DNA from: Xylanibacter ruminicola 23
GTDB lineage: Bacteria; Bacteroidota; Bacteroidia; Bacteroidales; Bacteroidaceae
Length of the DNA stretch: 32,000 nucleotides
Direction of reading: 5' to 3'
Assembly (NCBI RefSeq): GCF_000025925.1
Contig: NC_014033.1
Location: 2,550,001 to 2,582,000, forward strand
How positions within the stretch are numbered: position 1 is the first letter of the stretch; each line of letters begins with the position of its first letter. A program made the position numbers and the translations under genes. A model generated the notes under the pieces. That model did no database searches, was not told where the DNA came from, and saw nothing but the letters and a program-made list of their open reading frames with translations. Positions 21,184 to 28,354 of this stretch are shown here, one piece after another.

Positions 21184-21483
21184 TTATCTATTTCTCAATT
21201 TTTCCTTGAATTTCGTCAATTGAGCCCTCATAGAATCCACGCAAAGGTCAATTCCTTCCTCAAAAGTGTCACATGTCTTGTCTACGAAGAGAGTGGTTCC
21301 TGGAACGAAAACCTCAAGACTTGCTTCCTTATTTTGAGCCGTGGCTGGCTTGACTACTTTAAGTTGCACCTCTACTTTCTGTATATCCTCAAACGATTTT
21401 TCTAACTTGGCGACCTTCTTTTCGATGAACGCCTCTAACTTCTCGGTAGCGTCGAAGTGAATCGACTTAATCTTAATCTCCAT
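21184..21483 (-). CDS. hpf: Ribosome hibernation promoting factor (HPF/RaiA, S30EA family)
   Basis: 99 aa, MEIKIKSIHFDATEKLEAFIEKKVAKLEKSFEDIQKVEVQLKV... is the typical short HPF pattern. Confidence 0.88.
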   Translation of the reverse strand: MEIKIKSIHFDATEKLEAFIEKKVAKLEKSFEDIQKVEVQLKVVKPATAQNKEASLEVFVPGTTLFVDKTCDTFEEGIDLCVDSMRAQLTKFKEKLRNR

Positions 21484-21523
21484 AGTTACCTCCTATTTTA
21501 AAATAGTTATTAATAAAAAAGGT

Positions 21524-22405
21524 TCAGGCTCTTGGATGAGCCTCTTTGTAAATTCGCTTCAGCTGCTCAAACGTGGTGTGGGTATAAATCTCGGTTGTGC
21601 TCACACTGGCGTGTCCTAACAAGCTCTTGATTGTTTCCAACCCTGCACCGTTGTTCAGCATGGCAGTGGCAAAGGTGTGCCTAAGCACGTGTGGCGAACG
21701 TTTTTTCAGCGAGGTAACCATCGAAAGATACTTCTTTACGATCTGATAAACCTGACTGTCGGATATCCGTTGCCCCTTGTCACTCAGAAAAAGCGCGCCG
21801 CCGGTTTCGCCGAATTGTTCGTTGCGAGCAGTCTGATACTGCTTGAGCGCCTCGGCCAGCTCTGCCCCGAAGGGCACTATGCGCTGCTTATTCCTTTTTC
21901 CCGTTACTTTCAGTTGTGCCGCATCAAAGTCTACATCCTTATCGTTCAGACTTACAAGTTCCGCACGTCGTAAACCGGCCTCATAGAATAGTAATAATAT
22001 GGTACGCGCACGTACATTATTAAAAGAACTATCCCACTCTATGCCGTCTATCAGGCGGTCCATTTCTCCTTCGCGAAGGAACTGCGGCAGTGGTTTTGAT
22101 TTCTTTGGACCTATCACAGCATGTGCCGGATCGGTCTTAACCAGTTGTCTCTTTAGGGCAAAGCGGTAAAAGGAACGCAGTGCGCTCAATTTCTTATTGA
22201 TTGTTGAGGCAGAGTTTCCTTTATCCATGAGACTCTCCATCCAGTCACGGATCAGATCGGTATCTACCGAACTTATAGAGAGTTCTTTATCCCTAAAAGT
22301 CACATACGACTCAAAATCCCTAAGACTTTCCTCGTATGTCTGCACTGTTAGCGGAGATGTATTCCGCTCGTAGCGCAGGTAGTCCAGAAACTGGTTAATC
22401 ATCAT
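21524..22405 (-). CDS. Tyrosine site-specific recombinase, XerC/XerD-like
   Basis: 293 aa. N-terminal SAM-like core-binding domain (FLDYLRYERNTSPLTVQTYEESLRDF). Catalytic-domain motifs ...ARTILLLFYEAGLRRAEL..., PHVLRHTFATAML, LGHASVSTTEIYTH (R-H-R-Y signature). Confidence 0.9.
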   Translation of the reverse strand: MMINQFLDYLRYERNTSPLTVQTYEESLRDFESYVTFRDKELSISSVDTDLIRDWMESLMDKGNSASTINKKLSALRSFYRFALKRQLVKTDPAHAVIGPKKSKPLPQFLREGEMDRLIDGIEWDSSFNNVRARTILLLFYEAGLRRAELVSLNDKDVDFDAAQLKVTGKRNKQRIVPFGAELAEALKQYQTARNEQFGETGGALFLSDKGQRISDSQVYQIVKKYLSMVTSLKKRSPHVLRHTFATAMLNNGAGLETIKSLLGHASVSTTEIYTHTTFEQLKRIYKEAHPRA

Positions 22406-22480
22406 AAAATCGCAACCTTTAGTATTTGGGTACGAATTTACGGAAATTTCTCGAAACTACCAAATTTTCGGGGAACTTTT

Positions 22481-22672
22481 TTATTCCTCGTTAGCGCGAA
22501 GCTGCTGAACATATACAGCGTGCTCCATCTTAAGGCGCTTCAGTACAGATGGCTTGTCAAACTGCTGACGACGACGCAGCTCCTTTACAACACCTGTCTT
22601 CTCGAACTTTCTCTTGAACTTCTTGAGAGCCTTCTCAATGTTCTCGCCTTCCTTTACTGGTACAATAATCAT
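22481..22672 (-). CDS. rpsU: 30S ribosomal protein S21
   Basis: 63 aa, MIIVPVKEGENIEKALKKFKRKFEKTGVVKELRRRQQFDKPSV is canonical S21. Confidence 0.96.
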   Translation of the reverse strand: MIIVPVKEGENIEKALKKFKRKFEKTGVVKELRRRQQFDKPSVLKRLKMEHAVYVQQLRANEE

Positions 22673-22829: not shown

Positions 22830-24980
22830 CTAGCATTTCTGCCAGAGGTTGGTGTCAATCTTCACAATTTTGCCTTCTTTAACCCAACGGTAAATGATGG
22901 TCTTTACCACACCCGATTCACCATTTGCCAAACGGAGATTCACCAGATCTTCCTTTGAGAACTCCTTAGGCAGAGCATCCAGGTAGCGAATATTACCCTT
23001 TGAGACCTGAGCACTGATGGTGCCATCGCGCAAAGCATCAATCTTATTGCCATAAATCATCAACTGATAATGGAAACAACGCTCAGCATACCAGATGGCA
23101 AACTTAATGGCTCGCTCAGTTTCCTGCCTGCCTTCGAGCAGATAGGCGATGATGCCGGCACGGAAACCATTGAGTGCAGCACGACGACGAAGCACATCGA
23201 TAGAATATCGTAGTGTCTGCAGATACTCCTGACGCTTGCCTTCGTCCCACTCTTCGATGGCCTGATTGATAAGAGGCAAATCCACCTCACCCTCCTCGTC
23301 CATCAAGCATAGGCACTGGCGCTTCACTTTTTCCTCCTCTTCCTTGGTCCACGTCTTAAACTTAGGCATCTTGGCACCTACCATGTCAGGCAGAAGTACA
23401 GGCGTTACTCGGCTAACCAGACCACTCTCGGCATCGGCAAAGAAAGCACGGCACTTATTAGGTGTACCACACATCACCATATTATAATAGAGGGTGACCT
23501 TACCTGAGAACGAATCCTTTGAAATGCGGTGCTGTCCCCAAGGTTTGTTGTCGTAAGCCAATCGAAACAGGTCGTTCTTCTCTGTCCACGCACCTCCCTT
23601 GTTATTCTTCAGAACAGTCTCAATCTCAGGGGCATAGGTAAACAGATGCTTTCCCTTGGCATAGAGAGCTCGCTCTAGGAATGCCGACACACCGATGTTA
23701 GGTTCGATGATACGAATCTGACTGCAGGGATTCTCTACCTCTTCGCCGTTTTTCTTGGCCAGCGAATACTCGATTTCCTTCTGCCACTCCACCTCATCCT
23801 GCTTGATGATGGGATCCATCAGCAGTTCGTACTCAGTATCCACGAACGACTTACCCGTGGCCTGAGGCGCCTCGATATCCACTATAAAACTAGGCGAATT
23901 CAGTTTGCCGTCGCGATATTTGGCCCTGACACTTGTGGCCAATGTGCCAAGCATAGGCATGGCGGCCATCAGGGTAGCCTCGCGGAATTCTTCAGGAGCA
24001 TGATCGGAAAGGTCCTGAAGTATGCCAGGCAATTCCTTATCAACAGGTGCCACAAAAGCTTCGTCGTCACCATCCTGACCAGCTTCAGCTACTGCTCCCA
24101 AGGTGGACAGCACATCCTTCATAATCGAAGGCATATCCGAGGGACGGGTACTGCCCACAGCGCTTTTGATGGTAGAAATCGTCTCATGGTCCGACAGTCC
24201 CCAATGAGGAAGGATTGAGAAAAGCTTCTGCTCGTCGAAATCGCAGATAAAACGCATATAGCGACTCATCGTGTAAAGCGCCATATTACGCTCACCTTCG
24301 GCAGGAGCATCGCCATATCCCAACTTCAGGAGCAATCCCGATACGATGTTCTCATAAGGAATACCCTTGTAGTTCATTGAACATTCAGCATTAACCATTG
24401 AACATTCCTGTTCAGCCGATTTAGCTATCCGGTTGTTCTGAGAGGAATAAGAGGCTTTCTGCTCCTCGGTAAGAGGCTCGAACACCGCAGGATCGAGAAA
24501 CCTCACATACTGCTCACTAACCATAAAACAGCATCGGGCCAGGTCGGTAACATGCGAATCGTAACTTACCCCAAGTCGGGCAGCCAGTTTCTGGATATCC
24601 TCCTCGATGGTAGCCCCAGGTGTACGCCAAGCCCAGATGTGGGTACCACCTCCGGCACTCTCGGCAAAATACGCTATACGGCATTCGTCGATGAGGTTCT
24701 CCGTCCAAACCTTACCCCAGAGTTCCTCAGTTAGTCCCTTCTCATCGATGTCGAGGAAGAAAAGTCCCGAAGGTACAGCATCTTCAGCTTTACGGGTTCC
24801 GTTGGTAAAACACTCTGCAAGAGGCAGCCATACAGGCAGTTCCTTCTTGCGACTCAAATTCTTGTTCTGCTTCACGTCGGCGAGGATTTCCTCTACGTGA
24901 TTCTCCGCCAGCAGCTGACGGTAAGCAGCCATGCTCGCCTTGCGAGGCTTGCCGCTAAAAGATGATGCCATTTGTATCAT
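22830..24980 (-). CDS. Primase-helicase: AEP-type primase (BT4734/VirE-N-like) + PriCT-like + DUF3987-type P-loop domain
   Basis: 716 aa. N-terminal AEP-like motifs: DxD in GLFFLDIDEKG, sGxGxH-like ESAGGGTHIWAW, then DSHVTDLARCCFM. A middle GERNMALYTMSRYMRF resembles primase C-terminal (PriCT) domains. Walker-A-like EAPQATGKSF sits in the C-terminal half. A C-terminal wHTH-like tail follows. Family names are recalled from motifs and not searched. Confidence 0.75.
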   Translation of the reverse strand: MIQMASSFSGKPRKASMAAYRQLLAENHVEEILADVKQNKNLSRKKELPVWLPLAECFTNGTRKAEDAVPSGLFFLDIDEKGLTEELWGKVWTENLIDECRIAYFAESAGGGTHIWAWRTPGATIEEDIQKLAARLGVSYDSHVTDLARCCFMVSEQYVRFLDPAVFEPLTEEQKASYSSQNNRIAKSAEQECSMVNAECSMNYKGIPYENIVSGLLLKLGYGDAPAEGERNMALYTMSRYMRFICDFDEQKLFSILPHWGLSDHETISTIKSAVGSTRPSDMPSIMKDVLSTLGAVAEAGQDGDDEAFVAPVDKELPGILQDLSDHAPEEFREATLMAAMPMLGTLATSVRAKYRDGKLNSPSFIVDIEAPQATGKSFVDTEYELLMDPIIKQDEVEWQKEIEYSLAKKNGEEVENPCSQIRIIEPNIGVSAFLERALYAKGKHLFTYAPEIETVLKNNKGGAWTEKNDLFRLAYDNKPWGQHRISKDSFSGKVTLYYNMVMCGTPNKCRAFFADAESGLVSRVTPVLLPDMVGAKMPKFKTWTKEEEEKVKRQCLCLMDEEGEVDLPLINQAIEEWDEGKRQEYLQTLRYSIDVLRRRAALNGFRAGIIAYLLEGRQETERAIKFAIWYAERCFHYQLMIYGNKIDALRDGTISAQVSKGNIRYLDALPKEFSKEDLVNLRLANGESGVVKTIIYRWVKEGKIVKIDTNLWQKC

Positions 24981-25030: not shown

Positions 25031-26500
25031 CTAGCTAATAGTGCAATTATTCTTAGAGTTTGCTAACTGGTTATATTTCTGATAGATAGCACTAAAAACT
25101 TTTTTCAATTTTTCGTCTTCACTACTAAAACCTTCCTGAATATTCTTTCTGAATGTGTCAACATATCGTACCTCAGTAAGCTTTTGGGCTAAATCGCGGT
25201 CGGAATGGGCGCCAAACATTGCACTTTTTTTCATTTCTCCCACCAAATGACAGAAAAAGCGGGCAGTAAACTGATTATTATGCGGACTTTTACGAGTAAC
25301 CTTCAGGTGAGCAAATATGTTTTCATCCTCTATCAACTCCCTCCACATATTTATATAATGGGGCATCCACTTCTCGTCAAGAAGATTGGCGAGTTTATTG
25401 GCAGCATTTATCACAGCCTCGCCTATCTGCTGAACATCGGTGTTTACCAGCTGCTCTTGTCCGAACTTGGTGGTAGGATCCAGTTCGCGGGCAACTTCGC
25501 AAAGCGATGCAAGGTGGAAGATGAAATAGCGAATTTGTTCGTCGCTAAGTTGGGCCTCCTGAAAATCCCGGTCGAACGTCTCGCGATCGGCACTCCATTT
25601 GGCAAACAGTCCACCAGGTACTTGTGCCAGTTCCTGCAACTCTTTGCTGCGCTCGGCAGCCATCACTTCCATCCACGAGCAGCTATCGTTTACCACCCTG
25701 AGTGTATCACGACGTTCTTTCCAATAGGCCTCCCAGGTGTTGCTCTTTCGCACACGTGCCAATTCCTTATCAAGCAGGTTGGCCATTGCCTTGCCTTTAC
25801 TTCGGTTACTCTTCATAATGCTCACAAGCATTCCTGGCAATAGCATCAGAACCAACAGCCAAAGTATCATAACCTGCATATTGTTGGTTAAACCCGTACC
25901 TATCGAATCCATCGCTTGGTGTAATGTTTTAAAATAGGCGGTTGCCAAATCTTTATCCTGCGATGCATCTTTCTCGTTTATACTATTAACAATGGTGGCC
26001 ATCACTATCAAATCTTCTGGCTTAAGATGCTGAGCACAAACATACATAAAGTATTGCAATGGCGAACTTTCAGGCTGTGCGTTCTTAGCCTCTTGAGGTG
26101 GCATAGCAAAATACTGATTCATCATCTGCTGCGAAAGATCCACAAACGATACCGACTTATGCGCTAATGGCTCGCCCAAATAATTACTGGTAAGCGTTAT
26201 TACCGATTTGCGTAAACTGTTGTTGCACACCATCTTATCGATGCGATCCAGATACTCGGAATATAAAAATGCGCAAGGCATCTTATTCAGCTCGACCAAG
26301 GCCGTCATCGTACTCTGCATACGCATGATGGCTGCATAGACTTCAGCCTCAACACAAGTATCCATACCATCAGTCAGTTCCTGTACCAAGCACTCAAGCC
26401 GGTCGGCAGCCACCTGCCAATGACGGCACACCTGAACCGTTAATTGCTCAGTGCGCTCGTCGTCAACAATCTTTTTAATTTCTTCGGTCTTCATACTCAT
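25031..26500 (-). CDS. Hypothetical protein, all-helical with one central TM helix (orphan)
   Basis: The ORF track gives 25031..26518, but that start is a GTG inside the 32-bp palindrome. The first ATG is at 26500 (MSMKTEEIKK...). Single hydrophobic segment MQVMILWLLVLMLLPGMLVSIM near residue 215. I recognise no catalytic motif. The stop is 50 nt upstream of the primase-helicase start, so the two are probably co-transcribed. Confidence 0.65.
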   Translation of the reverse strand: MSMKTEEIKKIVDDERTEQLTVQVCRHWQVAADRLECLVQELTDGMDTCVEAEVYAAIMRMQSTMTALVELNKMPCAFLYSEYLDRIDKMVCNNSLRKSVITLTSNYLGEPLAHKSVSFVDLSQQMMNQYFAMPPQEAKNAQPESSPLQYFMYVCAQHLKPEDLIVMATIVNSINEKDASQDKDLATAYFKTLHQAMDSIGTGLTNNMQVMILWLLVLMLLPGMLVSIMKSNRSKGKAMANLLDKELARVRKSNTWEAYWKERRDTLRVVNDSCSWMEVMAAERSKELQELAQVPGGLFAKWSADRETFDRDFQEAQLSDEQIRYFIFHLASLCEVARELDPTTKFGQEQLVNTDVQQIGEAVINAANKLANLLDEKWMPHYINMWRELIEDENIFAHLKVTRKSPHNNQFTARFFCHLVGEMKKSAMFGAHSDRDLAQKLTEVRYVDTFRKNIQEGFSSEDEKLKKVFSAIYQKYNQLANSKNNCTIS

Positions 26501-26512
26501 TTCATGTTTATC

Positions 26513-26544
26513 GGTCACATGGTCACAGCTGTGACCATGTGACC
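26513..26544. repeat. Perfect 32-bp palindrome GGTCACATGGTCACAGCTGTGACCATGTGACC (copy 1)
   Basis: Verified base by base as its own reverse complement. It is built from four GGTCAC/GTGACC half-sites around a central CAGCTG and abuts the start of the orphan gene. Confidence 0.95.
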
Positions 26545-26633
26545 ATTTTATCCTTTTGATTATTTGTTTTTATTCGTAATTATCTATTTATCAACAAGTT
26601 AGTTACAACAAAACATCACATCTTCCTCACTGC

Positions 26634-26665
26634 GGTCACATGGTCACAGCTGTGACCACGTGACC
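26634..26665. repeat. 32-bp palindrome copy 2 (31/32 identical; GGTCACATGGTCACAGCTGTGACCACGTGACC)
   Basis: Same sequence as 26513-26544 except T to C at 26659. Both copies are preceded by CG and followed by ATT. The centres are 121 bp apart. Confidence 0.95.
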
Positions 26666-26688
26666 ATTACACCGTGAAGTAGTGCAGT

Positions 26689-26839
26689 TGCGAATACTAA
26701 TAGATGAAGGTGCGAATATTAAGCCTAGCAAGTACAAAGCCTAAGGCTAACAGGTACAAAATGCCTGTTTAAATATCGTTTGCCTATACTCAAACGATTG
26801 TGCGCCTATACGCAAACAACCGTTCGACTATACCCAATT
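26689..26839. repeat. Iteron-like array: three families of short direct repeats, each spaced exactly 22 bp
   Basis: TGCGAATAYTAA at 26689 and 26711. CTARCARGTACAAA at 26725 and 26747. GCCTATACNCAAAC at 26782 and 26804, plus a degenerate GACTATACCCAATT at 26826. Confidence 0.85.
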
Positions 26840-26870
26840 TCAATCGCACTCCAGCACCATCGTCATCTAT

Positions 26871-27491
26871 TTATATCTCTGTATAGATGTGCTCCTTGCC
26901 ACGTGGTGTCATCAGCAGTTTAGGATTGTCACCCTTAGTCCACTCCTGCAGTTGTTTACGGGCCGAATAGATTGTGAGCCCCGTAATTTGAGCAAACATG
27001 CTGGCTGTAATATAGCCGTTACGCTGCAAACAGTCACGCATCGTCAGCTCCAGTTTATCCTTATCGGCCAGTATCTCCTTGGTGTCAGGGTTATGATAGC
27101 GGCGGAATCCGTCGAGCCACTTCATAATCTCCCTTTCCCAAAACTTGCCAGGGTTATACTCCACGCCCTCAAGCCTTACATCGCGATCTTTCACCTGGTC
27201 GGCATCAGTCAACTGTTTGGCCAGCGACAACTTTGGTGCAAACGAACCTATCGGCGTATCAATGCGATAGCCCTCGGCCAGGAATCTACCCGCCACACGC
27301 ACAAAAGCATCCATCACCCTACTCAGTTCGCCATACCGCAGGTAGTTCATCCGCTCGCAGTAGTCCTCGAGCTGCTTCATGTTCAGCTTCATTCCACTTT
27401 TGGGACGGACATATACTATGTTTTGTCCATCTTCGCCCTTTACTGGGGTTCGATGAACCTCATACCACATTCCACTTTCTTTTCTAGGCAT
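26871..27491 (-). CDS. HU-like (Bacteroidales histone-like, HU_HIG-type) DNA-binding protein with C-terminal wHTH-like region
   Basis: ORF 26871..27551 trimmed to the ATG at 27491 (MPRKESGMWYEVHRTPVKGEDGQNIVYVRPKS...), which sits 27 nt downstream of a TAnnTTTG box. The N-terminal pattern (YxVHR.PVK..DG....YVRP ... G.RIDTPIGSF) resembles the Bacteroides putative HU-type DNA-binding proteins. The C-terminus NGYITASMFAQITGLTIYSARKQLQEW looks like an HTH. Confidence 0.7.
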   Translation of the reverse strand: MPRKESGMWYEVHRTPVKGEDGQNIVYVRPKSGMKLNMKQLEDYCERMNYLRYGELSRVMDAFVRVAGRFLAEGYRIDTPIGSFAPKLSLAKQLTDADQVKDRDVRLEGVEYNPGKFWEREIMKWLDGFRRYHNPDTKEILADKDKLELTMRDCLQRNGYITASMFAQITGLTIYSARKQLQEWTKGDNPKLLMTPRGKEHIYTEI

Positions 27492-27611: not shown

Positions 27612-27917
27612 CTATGCTGCTTCGTAAAATATCTGCCCTACTCTATCGATATGGTCGCCTATTGGTGTACCTTTCTTTTTATTGTAATCAAGCAGATCGA
27701 TGGAGTACAGGAGTTCCAAATCATCAATCTCGCACAGAATGGTTAGTATCTGATTATAATCAACACCTTCGCCAATCACAGCCAGATCGATATCTGAACC
27801 TTCACGATAAGTTCCTTTCGACCGAGAGCCGAAAATCAGAACTTTCTTGATGTTCGCATGCCGACGAAACACATCTTGCAGTTCCTTAATAACAGTATCG
27901 CTTAGTCCAAATTTCAT
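27612..27917 (-). CDS. Minimal nucleotidyltransferase (MNT, HI0073-like), putative antitoxin
   Basis: 101 aa. Pol-beta-type NTase signature GSRSKGTYREGSDIDLAV (G-S-x9-11-D-x-D). Overlaps the upstream HEPN gene by 4 nt (ATGA). Confidence 0.85.
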   Translation of the reverse strand: MKFGLSDTVIKELQDVFRRHANIKKVLIFGSRSKGTYREGSDIDLAVIGEGVDYNQILTILCEIDDLELLYSIDLLDYNKKKGTPIGDHIDRVGQIFYEAA

Positions 27918-28354
27918 GCCTGTTTATAATCTTCGTTTTGTGAAAGCACGTTCAAATCTTCATCCAGTTTTTTCAGTAGCGGAGCATAGTTGCTATAAAT
28001 CAGCCTAACTATTGGCAGCACCTCTTCTTCATCGTAAACATGACTGAGCGTATTACGCGCCTTTGACATTTTACGCCAAGCATCATGATCACCGATAAGG
28101 CCATCGTCGAAAGCCATCTTTAGTGTACCATTTGGCCCCAACATAAATTCATACCCCTTATAAATCAGAATATCCTGCAACACCTTCCATGCCAATTCGA
28201 AAGTATACTCGAAGCGCTGCACCAGGCCCTCAACTTCCAACTCAGACAGGTCCTCCAAAAACCTGTCAGCCTCAGTCACCTCAACGAGTCTGCCACATGC
28301 CTTATGATAATTAGCATATCGCTGAATCCACCTTATATCTTTCTGCTCTTCCAT
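27914..28354 (-). CDS. HEPN-domain protein (nucleotidyltransferase substrate-binding, HI0074 family), putative toxin
   Basis: 146 aa, helical. R-x4-H HEPN motif in KARNTLSHVYDEE. The pattern RFEYTFELAWKVLQD is typical of the HI0074 family. Paired with an MNT gene. Confidence 0.82.
   Translation of the reverse strand: MEEQKDIRWIQRYANYHKACGRLVEVTEADRFLEDLSELEVEGLVQRFEYTFELAWKVLQDILIYKGYEFMLGPNGTLKMAFDDGLIGDHDAWRKMSKARNTLSHVYDEEEVLPIVRLIYSNYAPLLKKLDEDLNVLSQNEDYKQA

What the first reader, a model, noticed from the sequence alone, without database searches (positions are those of the whole stretch)
26689..26842. Iteron-like array: three different short repeats, each with exact 22-bp periodicity
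Directly beside the palindromes are three repeat families. TGCGAATA(C/T)TAA sits at 26689 and 26711. CTA(G/A)CA(A/G)GTACAAA sits at 26725 and 26747. GCCTATAC(T/G)CAAAC sits at 26782 and 26804, with a degenerate third copy GACTATACCCAATT at 26826. Every within-family spacing is exactly 22 bp, about two helical turns, so bound proteins would lie on one face of the DNA. Repeat 26782 is additionally nested in an 8-bp inverted repeat (ATCGTTTG ... CAAACGAT). Phased direct repeats next to an AT-rich segment and a replication initiator gene are the classic signature of an iteron-type oriV. Here three distinct motifs share one phase, which is unusual. No ORF of meaningful length covers this region on either strand.
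Basis: partly seen in the sequence, partly recalled or inferred. Interest (0 to 1): 0.66.

Follow-up and report, generated by a model that had tools for sequence, protein, structure and literature searches.

The report
Conserved phased 22-bp repeat arrays
The 22-bp repeats are real and are part of a conserved non-coding module of rumen Prevotella that travels with an HU-like DNA-binding gene, so they look like phased protein-binding sites rather than the replication origin of the neighbouring primase-helicase-like gene.

Summary

The three "families" are two arrays on the minus (gene) strand:
- Array A has 3 units (26840-26775), consensus CGTTTGnGTATAGGCrmAC.
- Array B has 4 units (26760-26673), core TTTnyCCYTG..TTA.

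Both arrays, their 22-bp period and their fixed mutual register recur in well over 100 related Prevotella loci. Array A evolves far more slowly than silent sites of the adjacent gene (identity 0.80 against 0.51).

The arrays follow the HU-HIG (HU plus winged-helix) gene, not the primase-helicase-like gene. They persist where P488 and the DUF3987-like gene are absent, and they occur in about 59 different flanking contexts.

The DUF3987-like protein reads the neighbouring palindromes instead. One residue of its C-terminal HTH (Tyr or Cys) tracks GGTCAC or GGTTAC in 33 of 33 loci.

Nothing similar was found in plasmid, phage or viral collections.

Best reading: a phased protein-binding platform, with HU-HIG as the candidate binder. 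An iteron oriV is not excluded but is not supported. The closest described analogue is the BrickBuilt minisatellite element of Porphyromonas gingivalis.

The parts
26775..26840 (-). Array A: three head-to-tail 22-bp units. A1 is 26840-26819 (AAATTGGGTATAGTCGAACGGT), A2 is 26818-26797 (TGTTTGCGTATAGGCGCACAAT) and A3 is 26796-26775 (CGTTTGAGTATAGGCAAACGAT).
   Evidence: Unit consensus rrTCGTTTGnGTATAGGCrmAC. Spacing is 22 bp in 266 of 269 adjacent unit pairs across 132 loci. Identity is 0.80 against 0.51 at four-fold sites of the adjacent gene.
26841..26854 (-). Conserved lead-in to array A (CTGGAGTGCGATTG), also present in many unrelated contexts as yTGGArwrCGTTTCAAATTG.
   Evidence: Left-flank sequences; coordinates.
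26761..26774 (-). 14-nt linker between the arrays. Its length is conserved, which gives arrays A and B a fixed register.
   Evidence: In 115 unique loci the first CCYTG core of array B lies 39-40 bp after the last array-A TTTG in about 96; further cores peak at about +61 and +83.
26673..26760 (-). Array B: four head-to-tail 22-bp units. B1 is 26760-26739 (TTTGTACCTGTTAGCCTTAGGC), B2 is 26738-26717 (TTTGTACTTGCTAGGCTTAATA), B3 is 26716-26695 (TTCGCACCTTCATCTATTAGTA) and B4 is 26694-26673 (TTCGCAACTGCACTACTTCACG, degenerate).
   Evidence: In related loci the best autocorrelation lag of this zone is 22 in 95 of 125 loci, and 21-23 in 110. Conserved core TTTnyCCYTGywA..TTA.
26634..26665 (.). Upstream palindrome: four GGTCAC hexamers, two direct and two inverted. 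It neighbours the finding and is not part of the arrays. It is the cognate site of the DUF3987-like protein.
   Evidence: Hexamer type covaries with Tyr or Cys at residue 697 of the 716-aa protein in 33 of 33 loci, with 11 independent switches.
26545..26633 (.). AT-rich spacer between the palindromes. In relatives it carries a conserved central motif (..TAACATATTGATAwwCA..ATTTA..).
   Evidence: Palindrome-to-palindrome distance is 118-121 bp in 44 of 46 loci.
26513..26544 (.). Downstream palindrome, a perfect 16+16, ending 13 bp before the P488 start codon.
26871..27491 (-). HU-HIG gene (HU domain plus C-terminal winged HTH, 206 aa). It is the gene that co-occurs with the arrays and is the candidate binder.
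   Evidence: Pfam PF18291, E 2.8e-13. Array A is present in 20 of 21 P488 loci that have HU-HIG, and in 0 of 17 (at two or more units) that lack it. All HU-HIG-anchored loci carry arrays A and B.
25031..26500 (-). P488: a fast-evolving all-helical protein with no family assignment, the first gene downstream of the region.
   Evidence: No Pfam, PHROG, NCBIfam or PADLOC hit. Identity between loci is 50-64% while the next gene stays at 80-92%. The AF2 model has pLDDT 51.
22830..24980 (-). 716-aa primase-helicase-like protein, with sub-threshold BT4734-like_N and DUF3987 matches and a C-terminal HTH that reads the palindromes (Tyr697, codon 22890-22892).

Best explanation
The region holds two adjacent arrays of phased, sequence-specific protein-binding sites. 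Array A has three 22-bp units and array B has four. They form the conserved cis-acting half of a module whose trans-acting half is most likely the HU-HIG protein (HU fold plus winged HTH) encoded immediately upstream.

Sites spaced two helical turns apart would put bound proteins on one face of the DNA, which would allow a cooperative nucleoprotein structure. In this window that structure would sit directly beside a second, separate site set: two GGTCAC palindromes flanking an AT-rich spacer. Those palindromes are read by the C-terminal HTH of the DUF3987-like primase-helicase-like protein.

Shown here:
- The arrays are real, and their phase and mutual register are conserved.
- Array A is under purifying selection.
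- Array units keep their positional identity between loci.
- The arrays are linked to HU-HIG and are independent of P488 and DUF3987.
- The palindromes, not the arrays, are the DUF3987-like protein's sites.

Inferred: that HU-HIG is the binder, and that the complex acts architecturally or as a regulator on the neighbouring palindrome/AT-rich element and the P488-DUF3987 operon.
For: 1. Real and unique periodicity.

2. Phase is conserved in relatives.
- Array-A spacing is 22 bp in 266 of 269 unit pairs over 132 loci. One pair per metagenome locus is forced by the search pattern.
- Loci anchored on proteins rather than on the pattern show the same spacing.
- Array B's best lag is 22 in 95 of 125 loci, against a flat distribution in shuffles.
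- The A-to-B register is fixed.

3. Selection on array A.
- Pairwise identity is 0.80, against 0.51 at four-fold degenerate sites of the adjacent HU-HIG gene in the same 190 locus pairs.
- Within a unit, about 13 near-invariant positions alternate with freely varying ones. That pattern is typical of base-specific contacts.

4. Units with the same index are more alike between loci (0.79-0.81) than different units within one locus (0.63-0.75). The array is inherited as a structured whole, not homogenised like a minisatellite.

5. Linkage to HU-HIG.
- Array A is present in 20 of 21 P488 loci that carry HU-HIG, and in 0 of 17 (at two or more units) that do not.
- All four HU-HIG proteins looked up, covering at least six contexts, are followed by arrays A and B.
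- Homologues down to 49% identity keep array A nearby. This includes L084 and L111, where the gene is 2.5 kb away on the other strand, and L005 and L032, where it lies after DUF3987. A 3'UTR or terminator role therefore does not explain the link.

6. Independence from the primase-helicase-like gene: natural deletions and replacements leave the arrays in place.

7. The palindromes are accounted for separately by the Tyr/Cys to C/T covariation.
Against: - No binding data exist. The HU-HIG link is co-occurrence only.
- The one hint of protein-DNA co-variation (a distant HU-HIG clade with the TTTGAGTATAGGCGAAC subtype) rests on a single phylogenetic split.
- Ninety-three of 132 pattern-selected contigs have no HU-HIG in reach, 30 of them with adequate flanks. 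Binding there would have to be in trans, or those copies are remnants.
- Burroughs et al. (PMC5499826) argued that HU-HIG proteins are unlikely to be sequence-specific factors and found no conserved gene linkage.
- Array B is no more conserved overall (0.53) than silent sites, so only its core and phase argue for function.
- The metagenome sample was selected with a pattern that demands two good units, which inflates the apparent conservation there.
- The AF2 model of HU-HIG is of low confidence (pLDDT 58).
Confidence: 0.45

Rival explanations
1. Iteron-type replication origin. The 22-bp arrays are iterons of an integrated or episomal replicon. An initiator binds them, the AT-rich spacer melts, and the DUF3987-like primase-helicase is loaded. 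In a modified version HU-HIG would be the iteron-binding initiator and the palindromes the helicase-loading sites.
For: - The anatomy is textbook: contiguous 22-bp direct repeats as in R6K gamma or pPS10 (own knowledge), an AT-rich 89-bp spacer, flanking inverted repeats, and an adjacent primase-helicase-like gene.
- The trio of HU-HIG, arrays and a DUF3987-type gene recurs in a second, divergent version with a different DUF3987 family (L047, L084, L103, L111).
- The P488-DUF3987 cassette is gained and lost between close relatives.
- The permuted gene order in L005 and L032 is compatible with a circular intermediate.
Against: - The arrays persist without any DUF3987 gene, including stable HU-HIG-A-B loci seen in many samples (L159-L163).
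- They occur in about 59 contexts, often right after housekeeping genes.
- The helicase-like protein's HTH tracks the palindromes, not the arrays.
- Array A is nearly the same sequence in loci whose P488 differs by 40-50%. Iterons normally diversify with their initiator.
- There is no integrase, relaxase or partition gene, and the XerC-like gene is housekeeping.
- There is no match in PLSDB, INPHARED or IMG/VR.
- No circular or extrachromosomal contig was seen.
Confidence: 0.15
2. Selfish or neutral dispersed repeat. This would be a BrickBuilt-like minisatellite-bearing intergenic element (MITE-like) that spread through rumen Prevotella genomes. Its apparent conservation would reflect recent spread, and the HU-HIG neighbourhood would be one of its landing sites or its source.
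For: - There are about 59 different left-flank contexts among 125 contigs, many directly after stop codons or terminators of unrelated genes.
- No orientation bias relative to flanking genes or promoter motifs.
- Unit-number polymorphism (3 against 4) between otherwise identical loci.
- A described precedent exists in another Bacteroidales, P. gingivalis: 23-nt tandem repeats, 19 intergenic copies (PMC4596501).
Against: - No terminal inverted repeats; scores equal those of shuffles.
- No second inverted array within 10 kb, and no transposase nearby.
- Unit number is tightly constrained to 2-4, against 1-23 in BrickBuilt.
- Units keep position-specific identity across loci instead of homogenising.
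- Array A is far more conserved than silent sites in loci that diverged long ago, where HU-HIG is 75-80% identical at the protein level.
- At least some solo copies are demonstrably remnants of gene loss rather than insertions (L168 to L172 to L169).
Confidence: 0.2
3. End or arm-type binding sites of a mobile unit. The arrays would be multiple recombinase or transposase binding sites, as at Mu or Tn7 ends or in the arms of attP, marking one border of the cassette that carries the palindromes, P488 and DUF3987.
For: - Three or four contiguous 22-bp sites are typical of Mu attR and Tn7R (own knowledge).
- The P488-DUF3987 cassette is replaced or deleted exactly beside array B.
- P488 cassettes without array A still carry other 20-22-bp tandem repeats next to the upstream palindrome (L018, L020, L023, L028, L034, L036).
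Against: - No DDE transposase or dedicated recombinase lies in or near the module.
- No inverted partner array was found.
- The deletion junctions show replacement or microhomology, not clean excision.
- The distance from the HU-HIG stop codon to array A varies from 11 to 140 bp, unlike site-specific insertion.
Confidence: 0.1
4. Transcribed RNA element. The arrays would act as RNA, either as a structured leader or 3'UTR of the HU-HIG/P488 transcript or as a small RNA.
For: - All flanking genes are on the same strand, and no terminator lies between HU-HIG and P488.
- In L005 and L032 a Bacteroidetes-type promoter motif precedes the arrays.
- Folding energy is modestly better than shuffles (z -2.1 and -2.8).
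- Non-Watson-Crick combinations in the A3 dyad are mostly G-T on the gene strand (112 against 32).
Against: - No Rfam family matches even at E up to 10.
- No compensatory covariation in the candidate hairpin; the joint counts equal those expected under independence.
- The G-T excess follows from the direct-repeat consensus itself.
- Element orientation is unrelated to neighbouring genes.
- Both strands fold about equally well.
Confidence: 0.07

Closest known systems
Iteron arrays of theta-replicating plasmids (R6K gamma ori with seven 22-bp iterons; pPS10 with four contiguous 22-bp iterons; pSC101, F, P1). Comparison from own knowledge.
   Same: Contiguous direct repeats of about 22 bp in helical phase, 3-4 copies, next to an AT-rich stretch and inverted repeats. 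A gene for a winged-helix DNA-binding protein lies directly adjacent.
   Different: The locus is chromosomal and has no plasmid or phage relatives. The arrays occur in dozens of unrelated contexts and without any replication gene. They are not matched to the adjacent helicase-like protein. There are two different arrays in a fixed register. No Rep_3, RepA or TrfA-type initiator is present.
BrickBuilt minisatellite/MITE of Porphyromonas gingivalis (Klein et al. 2015, PMC4596501)
   Same: Found in a Bacteroidales host, strictly intergenic, and dispersed in many contexts. The core is made of spacer-less tandem repeats of almost the same length (23 against 22 nt). It has flanking non-repeat modules, and within-unit positions are unequally conserved.
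   Different: BrickBuilt has leader and tail segments with IS5-like terminal inverted repeats, 1 to 22.8 units, and reported promoter activity. Here no TIRs were found, unit number is 2-4, two distinct arrays sit in fixed order and register, and there is a strong link to HU-HIG genes. Sequence similarity could not be tested, because the 23-mer is not given in the held text.
Phage P4 ori/crr with alpha protein, and SaPI/PICI ori with Pri-Rep. This comparison concerns the neighbouring palindromes. From own knowledge.
   Same: Short hexamer or octamer sites in direct and inverted orientation lie on both sides of an AT-rich segment. They are read by the C-terminal DNA-binding domain of a primase-helicase-type protein encoded next to them.
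   Different: This applies to 26513-26665, not to the 22-bp arrays. Replication activity is untested, and the DUF3987 and BT4734-like_N matches are below Pfam thresholds.
Centromere-like repeat arrays bound by small DNA-binding proteins encoded alongside (parC/ParR of R1; omega-binding heptads of pSM19035). From own knowledge.
   Same: A DNA-binding protein gene is adjacent to an array of phased direct repeats that it is proposed to coat cooperatively.
   Different: There is no partition NTPase, the context is chromosomal and multi-copy, and the unit length and sequence are unrelated.

Membership tests
Iteron-type plasmid/phage origin (oriV) | Tandem direct repeats of about 17-22 bp in helical phase | tested here: met
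   Three plus four units at exactly 22 bp. The phase is conserved in relatives.
Iteron-type plasmid/phage origin (oriV) | Adjacent AT-rich region that could unwind | tested here: met
   26545-26633 is AT-rich and lies between the palindromes. It is separated from the arrays by the upstream palindrome.
Iteron-type plasmid/phage origin (oriV) | Iterons are the cognate sites of the adjacent initiator and stay linked to it | tested here: not met
   For the primase-helicase-like protein, the HTH residue covaries with the palindrome hexamers, not with the arrays, and the arrays persist without it. For HU-HIG as initiator the result is inconclusive: there is linkage but no binding data.
Iteron-type plasmid/phage origin (oriV) | Resides on an autonomously replicating or excisable element | tested here: not met
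   The window is chromosomal, with rpoBC, tuf, tRNAs, rpsU and hpf alongside. No hits in PLSDB, INPHARED or IMG/VR. No integrase or relaxase is present. This test is limited by what those collections contain.
Iteron-type plasmid/phage origin (oriV) | Supports replication in vivo | not testable with these tools
   Needs cloning into a suicide vector, or marker-frequency data.
BrickBuilt-type minisatellite MITE | Many intergenic copies in unrelated contexts | tested here: met
   About 59 left-flank families among 125 contigs. These were counted across metagenomes, not within one genome, so copy number per genome is unknown.
BrickBuilt-type minisatellite MITE | Core of spacer-less tandem repeats of about 22-23 nt | tested here: met
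   BrickBuilt features are from PMC4596501.
BrickBuilt-type minisatellite MITE | Leader and tail ending in terminal inverted repeats (IS5-like) | tested here: not met
   Left-end against right-end complementarity equals that of shuffles in 14 of 15 solo composite copies. The exception is an extra GGTCAC copy.
BrickBuilt-type minisatellite MITE | Highly variable unit number with within-array homogenisation | tested here: not met
   Unit number is 2-4, and 3 in 100 of 132 loci. Same-index units between loci are more alike than units within a locus.
Mu/Tn7-type transposon end | Inverted partner array at the other end and a cognate transposase | tested here: not met
   Only one of 159 sequences (158 loci plus the window) has a second array, and it is 100 bp away. 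No transposase domain lies in the module.
Structured non-coding RNA | Match to a known family, or covariation supporting a fold | tested here: not met
   No Rfam hit over the arrays. No compensatory changes in the A3 hairpin.

The most novel reading that the evidence does not exclude
HU-HIG(wHTH) proteins belong to a large, fast-evolving Bacteroidota family with no known function, and were reported to have no conserved genomic partners. Under this reading they have a dedicated cis partner: a bipartite array of phased 22-bp sites. Together with a DUF3987-type primase-helicase, whose own HTH reads separate palindromic hexamers through a single specificity residue, they would form a previously undescribed chromosomal module. 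That module would be self-propagating or replicative, and it would be gained, lost and eroded across rumen Prevotella, leaving solo arrays behind.
Probability: 0.25. Interest if true: 0.8.

Novelty: new variant of a known kind. Interest (0 to 1): 0.55.

Why it matters
If the arrays are the binding sites of the adjacent HU-HIG protein, an abundant Bacteroidota protein family of unknown function gains its first concrete, testable DNA target. The 22-bp unit is defined here position by position. It would also overturn the view that these proteins lack specific partners.

The work separates two site sets in one 370-bp intergenic region and assigns one of them to a protein. The palindromes are assigned to the DUF3987-like protein, with a one-residue/one-base specificity code (Tyr697 with GGTCAC, Cys with GGTTAC). 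That code can be checked by a simple swap experiment.

It also documents a widespread, undescribed intergenic repeat family in rumen Prevotella. That is relevant to MAG assembly breaks, to strain typing through 3- against 4-unit polymorphism, and to genome plasticity near defence islands.

If the arrays turn out to be inert dispersed repeats, the result is a modest addition to the catalogue of bacterial interspersed repeats.

Tried and rejected
- Known RNA family: Rfam at gathering threshold and at E up to 10 gave only spurious eukaryotic miRNA hits on the palindromes.
- RNA hairpin covariation in the last A unit: none was found.
- Plasmid or phage origin: tblastn with P488 and blastn with the region against PLSDB and INPHARED found nothing, and pattern scans of IMG/VR found nothing.
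- Transposon ends: there is no inverted partner array and no TIRs.
- Promoter array: the units do not fit the Bacteroidetes TAnnTTTG / TTTG spacing (read from the sequence), and promoter motifs show no strand bias around the element.
- Orientation relative to neighbouring genes: no bias, though the ORF-based measure is noisy.
- P488 or HU-HIG as reader of the palindromes: no column tracks the hexamer type.
- P488 as binder of array B: the B subtype is shared by loci whose P488 is only 63% identical, and array B occurs without P488.
- Defence-system assignment: PADLOC has no model for P488, the DUF3987-like protein or HU-HIG.
- Structure-based annotation: the AF2 models of P488 (pLDDT 51) and HU-HIG (pLDDT 58) were too poor to search with. 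The DUF3987-like protein has no PDB sequence relative.
- Apparent mobility of the whole unit in Prevotella communis (L164 against L165): this turned out to be the same chromosomal locus with a defence island inserted upstream.
- Literature: no paper in the held library contains the motifs.
Full report
**1. What is in the sequence**

The window is a chromosomal segment of Xylanibacter (Prevotella) ruminicola or a very close relative. L001, from strain Ga6B6, is 99% identical at the protein level. The window carries rpoBC, ribosomal protein genes, tuf and five tRNAs.

The finding lies in a 370-bp intergenic region. On the minus strand this region sits between the stop codon of an HU-HIG gene (26871-27491, Pfam PF18291) and the start of a 489-aa protein with no family, called P488 here (25031-26500). 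P488 is followed by a 716-aa protein (22830-24980) with sub-threshold BT4734-like_N and DUF3987 matches. The "integrase" further on is a XerC-like gene sitting between rpsU and hpf, so it is housekeeping.

**2. Check of the observation**

- The repeat finder and TRF recover the third family.
- The lag-22 self-match over 26689-26842 is 0.545. None of 5000 dinucleotide-preserving shuffles reached that value at any lag from 8 to 60.
- A scan of the whole window finds no other region of this kind apart from the 8-bp periodicity inside the palindromes.

Read on the gene strand, the three families resolve into two arrays.
- Array A: A1-A3, 26840-26775.
- Array B: B1-B4, 26760-26673.
- A 14-nt linker joins them.

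Arrays A and B share the period but are offset by 12 bp modulo 22.

**3. Conservation in related loci**

P488 has 703 homologues, all unannotated. Thirty-eight genome loci from rumen Prevotella were fetched. P488 and the DUF3987-like gene are always adjacent. P488 is only 50-64% identical between loci, while its neighbour stays at 80-92%.

In most loci the upstream region has the same layout:
- HU-HIG stop codon
- array A
- array B
- palindrome
- an AT-rich spacer of about 90 bp
- palindrome
- P488

Results across 132 loci:
- Adjacent A units are 22 bp apart in 266 of 269 cases. There are 3 units in 100 loci, 4 in 19 and 2 in 12. One pair per metagenome locus is forced by the pattern. Loci anchored on proteins rather than on the pattern show the same spacing.
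- The zone after array A has its best autocorrelation lag at 22 in 95 of 125 loci, against a flat distribution after shuffling.
- Array B's CCYTG cores sit at fixed offsets (+39, +61, +83) from the last A unit.

The repeats are not chance.

**4. Evidence for function**

This analysis used 20 loci chosen through proteins, not through the array pattern.
- Array A is 0.80 identical on average. Four-fold degenerate sites of the adjacent HU-HIG gene are 0.51 identical in the same pairs.
- Within the unit, about 13 positions are nearly invariant (TTTG.GTATAGGC..AC). Six positions vary freely, and one of them is never T.
- Units with the same index are more alike between loci (0.79-0.81) than different units within a locus (0.63-0.75). 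The array is therefore not being homogenised like a minisatellite.
- Array B is overall no better conserved than silent sites (0.53). It keeps a core (TTTnyCCYTGywA..TTA), its period and its register.

**5. Which gene the arrays belong to**

The arrays do not belong to the primase-helicase-like gene.
- L151 and L110 are 88-90% identical to the window. They have HU-HIG, array A and array B followed directly by rpsU. The segment from the end of array B through both palindromes, P488 and DUF3987 (window about 26706-22828) is replaced by 57 unrelated bases.
- A series of loci with the identical HU-HIG protein shows erosion in progress. L168 is intact. In L171 and L172 the two palindromes have collapsed into one and P488 is cut after about 11 codons. 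In L169 the palindromes are gone. Arrays A and B remain in all of them.
- Among the 38 P488-anchored loci, array A is present in 20 of the 21 that carry HU-HIG. None of the other 17 has two or more units.
- Every HU-HIG homologue looked up, four proteins in at least six contexts, is followed by arrays A and B.
- Homologues down to 49% identity keep array A nearby. This holds where HU-HIG lies after DUF3987 (L005, L032) and where it is convergent, 2.5 kb away (L084, L111). That rules out a simple 3'UTR or terminator explanation.

**6. The palindromes are a separate site set**

Each palindrome holds four GGTCAC or GGTTAC hexamers, and the type is uniform within a locus. One alignment column of the DUF3987-like protein lies in the predicted recognition helix of its C-terminal HTH (..VVKTII[Y/C]RWVKEG; Tyr697 in the window, codon 22890-22892). 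It is Tyr in all 19 GGTCAC loci and Cys in all 14 GGTTAC loci. On a tree built from the rest of the protein, the hexamer type switches at least 11 times. No column of P488 or HU-HIG behaves this way.

This is strong comparative evidence that the DUF3987-like protein reads the palindromes. If anything here is its "iteron", it is the hexamer, not the 22-bp unit.

**7. Dispersal**

Of 132 array-bearing contigs, 93 show no HU-HIG, P488 or DUF3987 homologue within reach, and 30 of those have adequate flanks. The arrays lie in about 59 different left-flank contexts, often just after the stop codon or terminator of unrelated genes. Composite copies with both palindromes but no P488 occur in at least ten contexts.

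- Orientation relative to neighbouring genes or promoter motifs shows no bias.
- No terminal inverted repeats, no inverted partner array and no transposase were found.
- Some solo copies are demonstrably remnants of gene loss (L043 and L110 carry HU-HIG fragments; L169-L172). Whether others arose by insertion cannot be decided here.
- The pattern-based sample is biased towards well-preserved arrays.

**8. Replicon question**

P488 and the whole intergenic region have no match in PLSDB or INPHARED. The array and palindrome patterns are absent from IMG/VR. No circular or extrachromosomal contig was encountered.

An apparent transposition of the whole unit in Prevotella communis proved to be the same locus with a defence island (AbiE, RM, KilA-N) inserted upstream of HU-HIG. 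The anatomy remains iteron-like, and the trio of HU-HIG, arrays and a DUF3987-type gene recurs in a second divergent version. A replicative role for the whole module is therefore not excluded. I rate it at about 0.15.

**9. RNA rival**

There are no Rfam hits. Folding z-scores are modest on both strands. The candidate hairpin shows no compensatory covariation.

**10. Comparison with known systems**

- In anatomy the arrays resemble plasmid iterons (22-bp contiguous repeats as in R6K or pPS10; own knowledge). They fail the membership tests of linkage to an initiator and residence on a replicon.
- The closest described element is BrickBuilt of Porphyromonas gingivalis: spacer-less 23-nt tandem repeats with leader and tail, 19 intergenic copies (PMC4596501). 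The present element differs in lacking TIRs, in its constrained unit number, in having two arrays in fixed register, and in its link to HU-HIG.
- Burroughs et al. (PMC5499826) described HU-HIG as rapidly diversifying, without conserved gene linkage, and probably not sequence-specific. The non-coding partner found here would have been invisible to a gene-neighbourhood analysis.
- No paper in the held library contains the motifs.

**11. Verdict**

The best explanation, at confidence 0.45, is a bipartite phased protein-binding platform linked to HU-HIG and standing beside a separate palindromic site set read by the DUF3987-like protein.

Novelty: a new variant of a known kind. Interest is moderate (0.55). 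The main value is that it makes HU-HIG function and a one-residue DNA-specificity code directly testable.

Noticed in passing
window 26513-26544 and 26634-26665; codon 22890-22892: The two 32-bp palindromes (GGTCAC hexamers) covary with one residue of the C-terminal HTH of the 716-aa DUF3987-like protein. Tyr goes with GGTCAC (19 of 19 loci) and Cys with GGTTAC (14 of 14), with at least 11 independent switches. This predicts a one-residue/one-base specificity code.
   Followed up: yes
window 25031-26500 against 22830-24980; L001-L038: P488 evolves much faster (50-64% identity) than its invariably adjacent partner, the DUF3987-like protein (80-92%). It has a central hydrophobic segment and no detectable family. 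The AF2 model is unusable (pLDDT 51).
   Followed up: partly
L010, L013, L014 (upstream of P488); L099: Some loci carry 3 to 5 copies of the palindrome, mostly about 120-bp palindrome-plus-AT-rich-spacer modules in tandem, instead of two palindromes.
   Followed up: no
L039, L051, L053, L055, L090, L103, L108 (left of array A): A second kind of inverted repeat / AT-rich / inverted repeat module precedes array A in loci of a different DUF3987 family. It has other short motifs (GGGGCAG, CTACACCC, GTGCACC) and a TTGATTATCA-like centre. This suggests interchangeable specificity modules.
   Followed up: no
L159-L161 against L162-L163; L169 against L170-L172; L050 against L095: The array-A unit number differs (3 against 4) between otherwise near-identical loci from different samples. 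This is a strain-level length polymorphism.
   Followed up: partly
L168, L171, L172, L169, L170: Loci encoding the identical HU-HIG protein show stepwise erosion of the palindromes and of P488-DUF3987. The palindromes collapse to one, P488 is truncated after about 11 codons, and one locus has an IS110 insertion.
   Followed up: yes
L104 6593-7010: Arrays A and B, here with six 22-bp B-type units (GCACGGAGCCTCTATACAAAT), are enclosed by a 37-bp inverted repeat. This is the only copy seen with flanking inverted repeats.
   Followed up: no
L154 (about 110-170 bp left of array A); L169/L170 (upstream of HU-HIG); L020, L023, L028, L034, L036: Other unrelated tandem repeats of 20-22 bp recur in these intergenic regions. 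One set has units that each contain a Bacteroidetes -7 promoter motif (AAGTATAACTTTGCAGGCATGA, three copies). A 22-bp period seems to be a recurrent theme.
   Followed up: no
window 27612-28354; L173 2221-9963; L169 566-3418: The side of HU-HIG away from the arrays is a variable island with defence or toxin-antitoxin genes. The window has MNT/HEPN, P. communis has AbiE, an EcoRI-like methylase, GmrSD/HNH and KilA-N, and L169 has AAA_21/SMC_N.
   Followed up: partly
window 21184-22672: The tyrosine recombinase next to the cassette is XerC-like (TIGR02224, E 1.7e-97) and lies between rpsU and hpf. It should not be read as the integrase of a mobile element.
   Followed up: yes
L005, L006, L032: The gene order is permuted, with HU-HIG directly after DUF3987 (about 15 bp gap). 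In L005 and L032 the arrays and palindromes are still upstream of P488; L006 has neither. This is compatible with a tandem or circular intermediate, or with a rearrangement.
   Followed up: partly
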